Source: Phycisphaerae bacterium (GTDB lineage: Bacteria > Planctomycetota > Phycisphaerae > UBA1845 > Fen-1342). From it: 64,000 nucleotides of DNA. Under the pieces are notes generated by a model, which worked only from the letters and a program-made list of their open reading frames with translations, did not search any database and had not been told where the DNA came from. The number at the start of each line of letters is the position of its first letter. The stretch's first letter is position 1. Positions 46,891 through 51,218 of this stretch are shown here, one piece after another. The stretch spans positions 64,001 through 128,000 of the forward strand of contig JASFQK010000014.1 in the NCBI GenBank assembly GCA_050115495.1, in the 5' to 3' direction. A program made the position numbers and the translations under genes.

Positions 46891-48867
46891 CTAGCGTGAG
46901 ATCAACTGCACGAACGGCCCAATGTCGAAGTTGTTGAGCTGGCCGTCCTCGTTGACATCACCGAACATCGGATCGCACTCCGGGTATTGCTCGGCGTAGC
47001 CCTCGGGGTTGGTCAGGGCCAGCACGAACGGGGCGATATCGAAGTTGTCGACGACACCGTCACAGTTCAGGTCGCCGGTGCCGGACAGCGTCGCGATGCA
47101 GCCCCACTGGCTGAGGCTGGTCGTCACCAGGTCAACGTTTCGCGCCATGACGCCGAAGCAGTAGGTTATTTCCGGCTGCAAGCCGTACACGACGAGGTCG
47201 TCCCAGTCGCCCAACTGCTGCCAGACGGCGTCTTCGTCATTCGTACCGGTGGCGTAACCGAGCTCGTCGATCCACTGACCGTCCATCGCCGGGTCGCCGG
47301 TGGTGTAGGCGCACTGGATGGCGAACTCGGTGGTGGCCGGGTTGCTGGCGGGATCGATCGTGACGGCGATCGTCTGGGCGCCGGTGGCGACAAGGGTCGG
47401 GCGGCCGGGGCGCATGGCCAGTGTGTAGGCCGAGGCCGGGTCGCTGTAGCCGGTCTCGTTGCCCGAGCCGTCACGCGCCTTGACCTCGTACGTGTAGGCC
47501 GTGTTGGGCTGGAGACCGGTATTGGCGTAGCCACGCGTGGGCTGCCAGCCGCTGTCGGCGCCGCCCGAGCCGCCGGAGACGAGGTGGAAGTAGTACTCGA
47601 TCGCGGGCGAACCGCTGTCCGAGGCCTCGACCGCACTCATGGTGACCTGCGTGTCGCTGGTCGCGGCCGGAAACAGTTCGAACTCCATCGGATCGGGCGT
47701 GGGCGGCGTCACATCGGCCGGGCCGAGAACGTTGAGGTAGAACTCGCCGGTCGCAGCATCGTTGCCGGCAACGCGGATGTAGTACGTCTCGGCCTCATAC
47801 ACGTCCACGTCCAGGCAGGACTGGAGGGAACCGACGTCGCAGATGTCGCTATCGTCGTTGCAGGCAAGCTGGTTGGCCGCAGTGCCCGGACACCCGGTGT
47901 GCACGGACAGGACGGTGTCCAGAGTTGAGCCGCAGGTGTCGAGGTAGAGCGTGCCGTCGGCCTTGGCGGTGTAAGTGTACCAGACGTCGGGGGAGGAGTT
48001 GGACGAGCCGCAACTGGCGGAGCCGTCATTGGTGGCGTCGCTGGTGTGGCCCTCTTCCGTGCCGTCCTCCACGTCGCGAGCGTCGGAGCAGTCGTCGGCC
48101 GGTCCCGAGGGCGGGAAGGGCCAGAGCATCGTATGCGACTGGAAGACTTCGGCGCGGTTGCTGGGTCCGCCGGTCGATTGGGGCTCCTGGGCCCAGATGA
48201 TGATCTTGATGTTGCTCTGGTGGGACCAGCTATACGAATCGAACGTGAACTGCCGCTCCACGGTCTGGCACTGACCGGGACTGAGGTAGATGTCCTGGGT
48301 GGCAGCGGCCTGCTTGAAGCCGTTGCGGCAATAGCTGGGGCTGGTCGGCCAGTGGTCGAGAACCTGCACCATGTAGATGCGCATGCTCTTGGCCGTGCCA
48401 CCGGCCTCCATGCAGATGGTGGCTTCGACGTTGTAGGTGGTGCCGCTGACGAAATCGCCGGTGGCGGTGATGATCACGTCCGTCGGCAGGACGGCTCGGC
48501 TGTTAAACTCGTTGTAGTAAAGGGCATACGTGTGGCTGCCGCTGTGCTTGACCGTACCGTCGAAGTAGGTCGTCGGATACCCGGTGGCATCCTGGTAGAA
48601 GCTCCAGCGGGCGTTGGCCCAGGAGGTTTCGTAGTCGTCGCCGCGGTGAATCTGGACAAACGAGAACGTGGTCGGGTAGTTCTCCATCAACTGGGCCAGG
48701 ATCGGGCCGGCCTGTGCGCAATAGCTGCACCAGGTCGCGGTGAATTCCTCCCCCAGCACTGTCCGCGTCGCTCCGGAGGCGGTTACGGGCATCGCTGCGA
48801 GAACCACGATCGCCAGGATCCCCCCGAGCCACAAGCTTCTCCGTGTGTAGCTACAACAGCCTTCCAT
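46891..48867 (-). CDS. Secreted thioredoxin-fold (CxxC)/Omp28-like multidomain protein with PPC-like, FN3-like and dockerin-like domains; Cys isoform
   Basis: Signal peptide; EEFTATWCSYC; GYPT cis-Pro-like motif; PDVWY..DTVLSV..CNDD; FN3 Y.Y.VKARD; dockerin; AAGGAG 6 nt before ATG 48867 (alternative 48873). Confidence 0.85.
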   Translation of the reverse strand: MEGCCSYTRRSLWLGGILAIVVLAAMPVTASGATRTVLGEEFTATWCSYCAQAGPILAQLMENYPTTFSFVQIHRGDDYETSWANARWSFYQDATGYPTTYFDGTVKHSGSHTYALYYNEFNSRAVLPTDVIITATGDFVSGTTYNVEATICMEAGGTAKSMRIYMVQVLDHWPTSPSYCRNGFKQAAATQDIYLSPGQCQTVERQFTFDSYSWSHQSNIKIIIWAQEPQSTGGPSNRAEVFQSHTMLWPFPPSGPADDCSDARDVEDGTEEGHTSDATNDGSASCGSSNSSPDVWYTYTAKADGTLYLDTCGSTLDTVLSVHTGCPGTAANQLACNDDSDICDVGSLQSCLDVDVYEAETYYIRVAGNDAATGEFYLNVLGPADVTPPTPDPMEFELFPAATSDTQVTMSAVEASDSGSPAIEYYFHLVSGGSGGADSGWQPTRGYANTGLQPNTAYTYEVKARDGSGNETGYSDPASAYTLAMRPGRPTLVATGAQTIAVTIDPASNPATTEFAIQCAYTTGDPAMDGQWIDELGYATGTNDEDAVWQQLGDWDDLVVYGLQPEITYCFGVMARNVDLVTTSLSQWGCIATLSGTGDLNCDGVVDNFDIAPFVLALTNPEGYAEQYPECDPMFGDVNEDGQLNNFDIGPFVQLISR

Positions 48868-48901
48868 CTCCATCTCCTTGAACGGTGTCCCAAAGCTGCT
48901 T

Positions 48902-49111: not shown

Positions 49112-51088
49112 CTAGCGCGAGATCAACTGCACGAACGGCCCAATATCGAAGTTATTGAGTTCACCGTCCTCGTTGATGTCGCCAAACAGGCGGTCGCAGT
49201 CTGGGTACCGCTCGGCGTAGCCCTCCGGGTTGGTCAGGGCCAGCACGAACGGGGCAATATCGAAGTTGTCGACGGTACCGTCGCAGTTCATGTCGCCGAG
49301 GCCGGACAGCGTCGCGGCACAACTCCACTGACTGAGACTGGTCATCACCATATCCACGTTCCGCGCTTTCACGCCGAAGCAGTACGTGATTTCCGGTTGC
49401 AAGCCGCGCACCGTGAGGGTGCCCCACGCATCCAACGACTGCCAGACAGCATCCTCGTCATTGGTCCCGTGGGCGTAGCCGAACTCGTCGATCCACTGGC
49501 CTTCCATCGCCGGGTCGCCGGTGGTGTAGGCGCACTGGATGGCGAACTCGGTGTAGGCCGGGTTGCTGGCCGGATCGATCACGAGGTCCATGTTCCGGCC
49601 GCTCAAGGGGGTGAGCGTCGGGCGACCGGGGCGCATGGCCAGCGTGTTAGCCGAGGCCGGATCGCTGTAGGCCGTCTCGTTGTCCGAGCCGTCGCGCGCC
49701 TTCACCTCGTAGGTGTAGGCCGTGTTGGGCTGGAGACCGGTGTCGATGTAGCCACGGTCGGGCTGCCAGCCGCTGTCGGTGCCACCCGACCCGCCGGAGA
49801 CGACGTGGAAGTAGTACTCGATGGCCGGTGAGCCGTTGTCCGAGGCCTCGACCGCACTCATGGTGATCTGCGATTCGCTGGTCGCGAACGGAAGCAGCTC
49901 GAACTCCATCGGATCGGGCGTGGGCGGCGTCACGTCGGCCGGGCCGAGCACGTTGAGGTAGAACTCGCCCGTCGCGCCGTCGTTGCCGGCGATGCGGATG
50001 TAGTACGTCTCGGCCTCATACACGTCCACCTCCAGGTAGGACTGGAGGGAGCCGGTGCCGCAGACGTCGCTGTCGTCGTTGCAGCCGAGCTCGTTGGCCG
50101 CGGTGCCCGGGCACCCGGTGTGCACGGACAGGACGGTATCCAGCGCCGAGCCGCAAGTGTCGACGATGAGCGTGCCGTCGGCCTTGGCGGTGTAGGCGTA
50201 CCACACGTCCGGGGACGAGTTGGACGAGCCGCAACTGGCCGAGCCGTCATTGGTAGCGTCATTGGTATGACCGTCTTCGGTGCCATCCTCGATATCGCGG
50301 GCGTCACTGCAGTTGTCCGCCGGTCCCGAGGGCGGGAAGGGCCAGAGCATGGTGTGCGACTGGAAGACCTCAGCGCGGTCGCTGGGTCCGCCGGTCGATT
50401 GAGGCTCCTGGGCCCAAATGATAATCTTGATGTTGTTCTGGTTGGCCCAACTGGTGCTGTCGAACGTGAACTGTCGTTCGACGGTCTGGCACTGGCCGGG
50501 GGTGAGGTAGATGTCCTGCGTCGTGGCGCCCTGCTTGAGCCCGTTGCGGTGGTAGTTGGGGCTGCTCGGCCAGTAGTCGAGCACCTGCACCATGTAGATG
50601 CGCATGCTCTTGGCCGTGCCACCGGACTCCATGCAGATGGTCGCCGTGACGTTGTACGTCGTACCGCTGATGTAATCACCGGTCGCCTCGATCAACACGT
50701 CGGTGGGGAGCACTTGGCGGCTGTGAAATTCGTTGTAGTAGAGGCTGTAAACGTGACTGCCGCTGTGCCGCACCGTGGCGTCAAAGAACGTGGTGGGGTA
50801 GCCGGTGAGGTCAACGTAGAAGTTCCACCGGGCATTACCCCAGCTCGTGCCGTAAGAGTCGTTGTAGTGGATTTGAACGAACGAGAAGGTGTTGGGATAG
50901 TTGTTGAGTAGTTGGCTTAAGACGGGACCCGCCTGAGAACAATAGCCTCAGCCGGTGTTGGTGAACTCTTCGCCCAGGACGACACGGGTAGCCCCGGAAG
51001 CCGTCATGGGCGTCGCTGCCACGAGCGCGGCGCCCAGGATCCCCCAGAGCCAGAGGCTTCTCCTTCGGTCGCTGCTACAGCCTTGCAT
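49112..51088 (-). CDS. Predicted selenoprotein: UxxC paralog of the adjacent gene, in-frame TGA at 50950-50948
   Basis: Reading through TGA gives MQGCSSDRRRSLWLWGILGAALVAATPMTASGATRVVLGEEFTNTG-U-GYCSQAGPVL..., collinear with and equal in length to the Cys paralog; SECIS-like hairpin follows. Confidence 0.88.
50914..50947 (-). promoter_or_regulatory. Bacterial SECIS-like stem-loop
   Basis: UGA-GGCUAUUGUUCUC-AGGCGG-GUC-CCGUCU-UAAGCC; G-led loop starts after 19 nt; basal GGCU/AGCC pairing. Confidence 0.75.
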
Positions 51089-51119
51089 CTCCATCTCCTT
51101 AAACAGTGTTTAGATGGCA

Positions 51120-51218
51120 GCGCCGGCGCAACAAGACATGGGGCAGACCGGCCCCACCCTGCCGAAACAGCCACCGGCGCCTTCTTGAGATAGCGTACTC
51201 AATCCATATGGCGGTTGC
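51120..51218 (-). promoter_or_regulatory. Conserved promoter-like motif and structured 5' leader, copy 2
   Basis: GCAACC-N9-ATTGAGTACGCTATCTCA then three stems with compensatory changes relative to copy 1. Confidence 0.6.

What the first reader, a model, noticed from the sequence alone, without database searches (positions are those of the whole stretch)
50914..50950. SECIS-like hairpin directly after the UGA, built from atypical codons
Seen: UGA GGC UAU UGU UCU CAG GCG GGU CCC GUC UUA AGC C folds as AGGCGG/CCGUCU around a GUC loop, with basal GGCU/AGCC pairing. Codons here (TGT, TCT, GGT, TTA, CAA, CTA) are A/T-ending in a strongly GC3-biased gene, while the Cys paralog uses GCC GGC CCG ATC CTG and lacks the GGUC apex. 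Established: bacterial SECIS elements have a G early in a small apical loop a short distance 3' of the UGA, and E. coli fdhF has a GGUC-containing apex. Inference: synonymous sites are constrained by SelB binding.
Basis: partly seen in the sequence, partly recalled or inferred. Interest (0 to 1): 0.8.

Follow-up and report, generated by a model that had tools for sequence, protein, structure and literature searches.

The report
Selenocysteine-insertion hairpin in thioredoxin-like gene
A small RNA hairpin just after an in-frame stop codon almost certainly tells the ribosome to insert selenocysteine into a thioredoxin-like protein; it is a well-supported but ordinary example of a known bacterial signal.

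Summary
The hairpin is real and is almost certainly a bacterial SECIS. The TGA (50950-50948, minus strand) is codon 49 of a 660-aa gene, in a UxxC motif that is CxxC in the adjacent paralog. The genome has selA, selB, selD and tRNA-Sec. Alone the hairpin is no more stable than shuffles (z -0.26); homologs give the evidence. All 76 of 76 TGA copies keep GU at loop positions 2-3, against 9 of 52 Cys copies. The 5-bp stem is 90% paired with compensatory changes in TGA copies, 62% and at chance level in Cys copies. The GU follows TGA in about 11.5 of 13 independent tree pairs, never the reverse. It lies in the register of E. coli fdhF G23/U24, without the bulged U17. Corrections: the conserved form is 5 bp plus an NGUNN loop, not a GUC triloop; the basal GGCU/AGCC helix is not conserved; only GGT is clearly constrained among the rare codons. 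The protein is a distant relative of the known Omp28-related/GOS_C selenoproteins, which this scan has noted in other genomes. Read-through itself was not shown.

The parts
50948..50950 (-). In-frame TGA, codon 49, predicted selenocysteine of a UxxC motif (U-G-Y-C)
   Evidence: aligned to TGC in the paralog and to the first Cys of thioredoxin WCxxC; contig 16 of RNA-library run X2 (another study) covers 50896-51104 with no differing letter
50920..50934 (-). SECIS upper hairpin, +14..+28 after UGA: 5-bp stem (+14..+18 with +24..+28) and 5-nt loop
   Evidence: 90.1% of cells paired and 52 compensatory cells in 67 distinct TGA copies, 0 of 500 shuffles as high; chance level in 51 Cys copies
50925..50929 (-). 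Apical loop GGUCC (+19..+23); G+20 and U+21 invariant in TGA copies, in the positions of E. coli fdhF G23 and U24
   Evidence: 76 of 76 against 9 of 52; register compared with fetched E. coli fdhF; numbering from PMC8659212
50914..50947 (-).
50927..50958 (-). Competing hairpin that pairs the UGA region with +10..+21 in naked RNA; role unknown, probably incidental
   Evidence: not general in the family (the SECIS core still wins in 42 of 76 TGA copies with upstream sequence)
49112..51094 (-). Host gene, 660 aa: probable signal peptide (by eye), Omp28/HBP35-like thioredoxin plus beta-sandwich domain with UxxC, weak GBD-like and fn3-like stretches, duplicated C-terminal repeat that looks dockerin-like (by eye)
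46891..48873 (-). Tandem Cys paralog (CxxC, 80% identical in the N-terminal domain) without the GU apex and the stem: internal control
   Evidence: sister of the TGA gene in the tree

Best explanation
The hairpin is the SECIS of a selenoprotein gene. When the ribosome reaches UGA (codon 49), the first 11-13 nt after it lie in the mRNA channel and the 5-bp hairpin at +14..+28 stands just outside (inferred from the E. coli model). The C-terminal winged-helix domain of SelB binds the G and U at loop positions 2-3 (+20, +21) and delivers Sec-tRNA(Sec), so UGA is read as selenocysteine before RF2 terminates (inferred). The product has an active-site UxxC in a thioredoxin fold and is probably an exported thiol/selenol oxidoreductase (inferred). 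The element is written into the codons for x-Ala-Gly-x-Ala-Leu: Gly is forced to GGT and the third bases of the codons on either side must be complementary (shown by comparison).
For: Shown: NGT at the apex codon in 76 of 76 TGA copies (67 GGT, 5 CGT, 4 AGT) against 9 of 52 Cys copies; GGT is 12% of Gly codons in the genome and 17% elsewhere in the same domains. The +18/+24 pair is G-C 37, C-G 34, other 5 in TGA copies, and paired in 27 of 52 Cys copies. Stem 90.1% paired, 0 of 500 shuffles as high, against 61.6%, 189 of 500. On a tree built without the SECIS columns, 25 TGA/Cys changes; in 13 independent pairs on well-supported branches the GU goes with TGA in 11.5 and against it in 0 (median p 0.0005), the stem in 10.4 against 0.1. 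GU plus 5 of 5 pairs at this register: 58 of 76 TGA copies, 4 of 52 Cys copies, 146 of 135,875 TGA triplets in the genome. selA, selB, selD (itself with one TGA) and tRNA-Sec are over their cut-offs; SelB has the SelB-wing_3 domain and matches solved SelB C-terminal domains. All 37 other handle genomes with TGA copies have selA or selB (32 both); the only two of the 50 searched with neither hold Cys copies only. Same loop register as E. coli fdhF.
Against: The isolated fold is not more stable than shuffles and the upper hairpin alone (-5.9 to -6.5 kcal/mol) is above the -7.5 limit of the published model. With upstream sequence a competing fold wins in this gene. RNAalifold found a 4-bp stem with a 5-nt loop on 13 copies but not on 68 copies, where it returned two unrelated pairs at -0.14 kcal/mol. 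The compensatory +18/+24 change has only 3 independent well-supported pairs, too few for a test. The E. coli bulged U17 is absent. Nine Cys copies keep GGT, several with an intact stem. No read-through, binding or protein evidence.
Confidence: 0.95

Rival explanations
1. The hairpin is a true SelB-dependent signal, but UGA is decoded as cysteine by a tRNA(ReC)/SelC* rather than as selenocysteine.
For: Such tRNAs are reported beside canonical SelC in some genomes (PMC13582414, passages). ARAGORN listed a second tRNA with UCA anticodon at C3:95769. The genome is 92% complete.
Against: The C24 tRNA matches RF01852 over its whole length (66.7 bits) and its discriminator base is G, the SelC criterion in that paper. 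The C3 call has broken stems and is not among the 8 RF01852 matches. selA and selD are present.
Confidence: 0.02
2. The hairpin is a by-product of the conserved protein sequence (Ala-Gly-x-Ala in GC-rich codons pairs by itself); recoding uses another signal.
For: Two stem pairs are also common in Cys copies (+17/+25 47 of 52, +16/+26 46 of 52) because the amino acids fix them. The z-score is near 0.
Against: The discriminating sites are synonymous: the third base of Gly, and third bases at +18/+24 and +15/+27. They are constrained only in TGA copies, and the G-U survives Gly-to-Arg and Gly-to-Ser changes.
Confidence: 0.02
3. The TGA is a real stop (pseudogene after duplication), a sequencing error, or a genome-wide reassigned codon.
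For: A complete Cys paralog lies next door and could cover the function.
Against: TGA stands at the same site in 76 copies from 41 genomes or records and never TAA or TAG among 134 rows; the frame stays open for 611 codons; an RNA-library contig of another study has the same letters. TGA ends 738 of 1748 long coding ORFs and prfB is present, so it is a normal stop elsewhere.
Confidence: 0.01

Closest known systems
Consensus bacterial SECIS model (as given in PMC13188914, Fig. 2 legend; passages read)
   Same: Small apical loop with G early, followed by G or U; 4-16 bp upper stem; loop 16-37 nt after UGA; inside the coding region.
   Different: Upper hairpin alone is weaker than the -7.5 kcal/mol limit; no conserved lower stem. 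In this family the first loop base is free (G 67, C 5, A 4) and only the G-U at positions 2-3 is fixed.
E. coli fdhF SECIS (NC_000913.3; numbering from PMC8659212, passage)
   Same: GGUC at +19..+22 after UGA in both; G23 and U24 correspond to the invariant +20 and +21; the lower region is reported to matter less there too.
   Different: No bulged U17 (+14 is a paired base in 60 of 76 copies); stem starts at +14, not +12; stem sequence unrelated.
Omp28-related selenoprotein, NCBIfam NF045500 = hypothetical protein GOS_C (PMC2398784, passages; PMC13188914 Table 1)
   Same: UxxC in a thioredoxin-like fold, Sec and Cys forms side by side, SECIS-like hairpin after TGA; best NCBIfam hit over residues 31-232 (E 4.8e-10).
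   Different: 39.3 bits against a cut-off of 200, so a divergent branch and not a member by the model; found here in Phycisphaerae-type genomes, often several copies per genome, with long and varied C-terminal parts; 8 of 76 TGA copies lack Cys at the +3 position.
Porphyromonas gingivalis HBP35 (PDB 5y1a) and Omp28 family PF11551
   Same: Best structural match of the predicted domain (E 4.2e-10, TM 0.71); nearest Atlas clusters are Omp28-domain proteins.
   Different: 14% identity; Pfam did not call Omp28 on this protein; heme binding was not tested.

Membership tests
Bacterial SECIS (consensus model) | Follows an in-frame UGA that aligns with Cys in homologs | tested here: met
   77 TGA, 52 TGC/TGT, 5 other codons among 134 rows
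Bacterial SECIS (consensus model) | 3-9 nt apical loop on a 4-16 bp upper stem | tested here: met
   5-nt loop on 5 bp (or 3-nt loop on 6 bp in this copy)
Bacterial SECIS (consensus model) | G in one of the first two loop positions, mostly followed by G or U | tested here: met
   G at loop position 2 and U at 3 in 76 of 76 TGA copies
Bacterial SECIS (consensus model) | 16-37 nt between UGA and the apical loop | tested here: met
   18 nt (21 nt in 8 copies with a one-codon insertion)
Bacterial SECIS (consensus model) | MFE at or below -7.5 kcal/mol | tested here: inconclusive
   Upper hairpin -5.9 to -6.5; with the basal helix -8.2; best fold of +1..+45 -9.9. bSECISearch itself could not be run.
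Bacterial SECIS (consensus model) | selA, selB with mRNA-binding domain, selC, selD in the genome | tested here: met
Bacterial SECIS (consensus model) | Binds SelB and directs Sec insertion | not testable with these tools
   Needs binding and reporter assays
E. coli fdhF-type SECIS | G23 and U24 in the apical loop | tested here: met
   +20 G and +21 U, same register
E. coli fdhF-type SECIS | Bulged U17 in the upper stem | tested here: not met
   +14 is A paired with U here; paired in 60 of 76 TGA copies
Rfam RNA families | Match to a curated covariance model | tested here: not met
   No match up to E 10 in 50700-51200
NF045500 Omp28-related selenoprotein (GOS_C) | UxxC motif in a thioredoxin-like fold | tested here: met
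   (pLDDT 95.9, strand then motif then helix)
NF045500 Omp28-related selenoprotein (GOS_C) | Score at or above the curated cut-off of 200 bits | tested here: not met
   39.3 bits for this protein, 36.7 for the Cys paralog, 94.3 for the C3 paralog, whose best stretch is the C-terminal repeats

The most novel reading that the evidence does not exclude
This is the SECIS of an undescribed, multi-copy Phycisphaerae branch of exported Omp28-like selenoproteins that has switched between Sec and Cys about 25 times. The family defines a minimal SelB signal, a 5-bp stem with an N-G-U-N-N loop, no bulged U and no lower stem, in which the G-U outranks the encoded amino acid and single synonymous changes mark its gain or loss. 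It would be a ready natural test set for how fast SECIS elements arise or decay.
Probability: 0.55. Interest if true: 0.42.

Novelty: new member of a known kind. Interest (0 to 1): 0.27.

Why it matters
It confirms that a gene which looks truncated at codon 49 is a whole selenoprotein gene, and that dozens of relatives in Phycisphaerae-type genomes are too. The mechanism is textbook, so the finding is not surprising. Its use is practical: a compact SECIS rule for this lineage (GU at +20/+21 on a 5-bp stem, background about 0.1% of TGA triplets) and a side-by-side Sec/Cys paralog pair that makes a clean reporter experiment.

Tried and rejected
Thermodynamic z-scores: no signal for the TGA copy or the paralog. 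Rfam: no match. RNAalifold on 68 TGA copies did not recover the stem; on 13 it did. One search counted the basal helix one column off; redone. Basal helix and GUC triloop rejected as family features. A/T at the third bases flanking the stem (+12: 42 observed against 13.4 expected; +30: 30 against 10.8; Cys copies 9 against 8.3 and 5 against 7.1) looked like part of the signal but did not hold on independent tree pairs (median p 0.125 and 0.69): left open. The search for related loci could not use alignment A2; the metagenome scan gave no answer, so that collection was not searched; the genome-contig scan with one protein gave 4 loci. No plasmid match. No Sec form among 18 AhpC-TSA matches, 1 molybdopterin match and 1 FlpD match in the genome. 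The second ARAGORN tRNA-SeC call was rejected as poorly folded. Runs X3 and X4 do not cover the TGA; contigs cannot show transcription or its level. Paper searches for Omp28 with selenoprotein found nothing and Phycisphaerae with selenoprotein one unrelated paper (listing only); the library lacks most subscription journals. Rows dropped before counts: of 134 rows, one weak TGA row (38 bits, L083) and 5 rows with other codons were left out of the 76/52 counts; 8 TGA rows and 1 Cys row with a one-codon insertion were shifted by hand and left out of alignments A4 and A5; the tree used the 121 rows scoring 150 bits or more.

Full report
Observation. The TGA at 50950-50948 (minus strand) is codon 49 of a 660-codon frame, 51094-49112, in the motif U-G-Y-C. 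A tandem paralog at 48873-46891 has C-S-Y-C at the same place and is 80% identical in this domain. The helix AGGCGG/CCGUCU forms with pair probabilities of 0.89-0.99 when only the sequence after UGA is folded, but it is no more stable than shuffles (z -0.26). With 30 or 60 upstream bases a competing hairpin that contains the UGA wins. The basal GGCU/AGCC helix has probability under 0.1. Seven of codons 50-62 end in A or T against 1.47 expected; the paralog has 2. From the single sequence, then, the hairpin is plausible but not shown.

Machinery. The genome has selA, selB, selD (with one in-frame TGA) and tRNA-Sec, each over its cut-off. SelB carries the SelB-wing_3 domain and matches solved SelB C-terminal domains. 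The tRNA ends in a G discriminator, the SelC criterion used in PMC13582414 (passages). TGA is otherwise a normal stop: it ends 738 of 1748 long coding ORFs, and prfB is present. A contig of an RNA-library run from another study covers 50896-51104 with no differing letter, so the TGA is not an assembly error; it does not prove transcription.

Homologs. Searches of 301 genomes of the class and 201 of the order found the domain in 15 and 63 genomes. Three of four named records that hold relatives are Phycisphaerae or Phycisphaerales. After removing identical contexts, 134 rows covered the active site: 77 TGA, 52 Cys codons, 5 other, no TAA or TAG. One weak TGA row was dropped; the 76 come from 41 genomes or records. 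All 37 other handle genomes with TGA copies have selA or selB; the two of 50 that lack both have Cys copies only.

The conserved element. The seventh codon after UGA (eighth in 8 copies with an insertion) is NGT in 76 of 76 TGA copies: 67 GGT, 5 CGT, 4 AGT. In Cys copies it is NGT in 9 of 52. GGT makes up 12% of Gly codons in the genome. The G-U is thus kept even when the amino acid changes. The flanking stem, +14..+18 with +24..+28, is 90.1% paired in 67 distinct TGA copies, with 52 two-sided changes and 0 of 500 shuffles as high; in 51 Cys copies it is 61.6% paired, like its shuffles. The closing pair is G-C in 37 and C-G in 34 of 76, both at third codon positions. Folding +12..+46 gives the core stem in 61 of 76 TGA and 9 of 52 Cys copies; the full pattern occurs after 146 of 135,875 TGA triplets in the genome. 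Relatives are not independent, so a quick IQ-TREE tree was built from the domain downstream of the element (121 rows). It shows 25 TGA/Cys changes; in 13 independent pairs on well-supported branches the G-U goes with TGA in 11.5 and against it in none, and the stem in 10.4 against 0.1. The tree is unrooted and cannot tell gain from loss. Against this: RNAalifold recovered the stem on 13 copies but not on 68, the compensatory closing pair has only 3 well-supported independent pairs, and 9 Cys copies keep GGT, several with the stem, which may be remnants or precursors.

The sixth pair that makes a GUC triloop forms in 49 of 76 TGA and 29 of 52 Cys copies, so the family form is a 5-nt NGUNN loop. 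The basal helix is about 45% paired in both sets. Of the rare codons, GGT is clearly constrained. TCT and TTA sit at the two third positions that flank the stem, which are A/T-rich in TGA copies (42 against 13.4 expected, 30 against 10.8), but this did not hold on independent pairs. TAT, TGT and CAA show no family-wide excess, and the CTA position only a small one, 14 against 6.9.

Same genome. Seven other in-frame TGA genes were picked out by coding potential and motif scans (not an exhaustive list): selD, a SelW/Rdx protein over the NF041051 cut-off, a third Omp28-like paralog, two DUF1573 proteins and two CarboxypepD_reg-TlpA fusions. All seven fold a hairpin with G-U or G-G at the start of a small loop that begins 20-33 nt after UGA.

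Mechanism. Shown: the codon, the machinery, and selection on the loop and stem in TGA copies only. Inferred from the E. coli model: the hairpin stands at the mRNA entrance while UGA is in the A site, SelB binds the loop G-U and delivers Sec-tRNA. In fetched E. coli fdhF the GGUC also lies at +19..+22, and a review names U17, G23 and U24 as the fixed bases and the lower region as less important (PMC8659212, one passage). G23 and U24 are exactly the invariant +20 and +21 here; the bulged U17 is missing. The competing hairpin needs the UGA unoccupied, so it should not exist during decoding (inference). The predicted domain (pLDDT 95.9) resembles HBP35 and thioredoxins, which puts Sec at the nucleophilic position; export is read by eye from the N-terminus.

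Relation to what is known. The element meets the loop, stem, G and spacing rules of the consensus bacterial SECIS; the energy rule is borderline (PMC13188914, passages and parts 1-2 of 3 of section 7). It works like the fdhF SECIS but is not of that exact type. The protein's best NCBIfam hit is NF045500, Omp28-related selenoprotein, at 39.3 bits against 200; that model is the GOS_C family predicted in 2008 with UxxC, a thioredoxin-like fold and SECIS-like hairpins (PMC2398784, passages). Comparing SECIS loops in Sec and Cys homologs has also been done for hydrogenases (PMC13582414, passages). Searches found no paper on this branch; supplements were not read, and datasets of recent large selenoprotein screens could list it. 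Earlier notes of this scan report the same kind of gene in other genomes; a search by sequence found no look-alike note.

Verdict. Real, very probably functional, and an ordinary member of a known kind. Interest 0.27.

Noticed in passing
G000:C21:59077 (-) = L154/L161 and G000:C39:50968 (-) = L155: Two CarboxypepD_reg plus TlpA/redoxin (CxxC) proteins have an in-frame TGA in a G-U-G-P-x-P motif between the domains. Among the 19 best aligned rows it is TGA in 17 and TGC in 2, with a strong 7-10 bp hairpin whose loop does not always keep the G-U. No NCBIfam selenoprotein model covers that stretch, I could not recognise it in the 119-family table of PMC13188914, and one paper search was empty: a candidate undescribed selenoprotein family, more novel than the finding itself.
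   Followed up: partly
G000:C3:61923 (+) = L046/L157: Third Omp28-like paralog with TGA but no resolving Cys (U-T-A-D-P-P) and a one-codon insertion that moves the SECIS loop to +22. Eight of 76 TGA copies lack Cys at +3; in one or two of them it is only shifted.
   Followed up: partly
G000:C33:61942 (-) and C33:63531 (-) = L156: Two tandem DUF1573 / OS_HP2-like proteins with in-frame TGA and SECIS-like hairpins; below the NF041425 cut-off (51.4 and 46 against 100 bits).
   Followed up: partly
G000:C23:92950 (-) = L158: SelT/SelW/SelH (Rdx) CxxU selenoprotein gene with a 7-bp hairpin and GUC apex; NF041051 88.6 bits against a cut-off of 88.
   Followed up: yes
window 50927-50958 (-): A hairpin that pairs the UGA region with the 5' arm and loop of the SECIS outcompetes it in naked RNA; the rare TCT codon contributes to it.
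   Followed up: partly
L052, L054, L084, L150: Cys-codon copies that keep the GU loop and a complete stem, in genomes with selA and selB: possible recent Sec-to-Cys reversions or ready-made precursors.
   Followed up: no
76 TGA copies: The base right after UGA is never T (G 35, C 23, A 18), against T in 9 of 52 Cys copies; may reflect avoidance of a strong termination context (recalled, not tested).
   Followed up: no
G000:C6:149700-153583: prfB (RF2) lies about 1.5 kb upstream of selA on the same strand.
   Followed up: no
G209:C21, G421:C16, G233:C13: A family member lies within about 7-14 kb of selA or selB in these genomes; may be chance.
   Followed up: no
G000:C29:41263 (+): In-frame TGA in a frame that looks like an IS transposase piece by eye; probably a broken gene, not a selenoprotein.
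   Followed up: no
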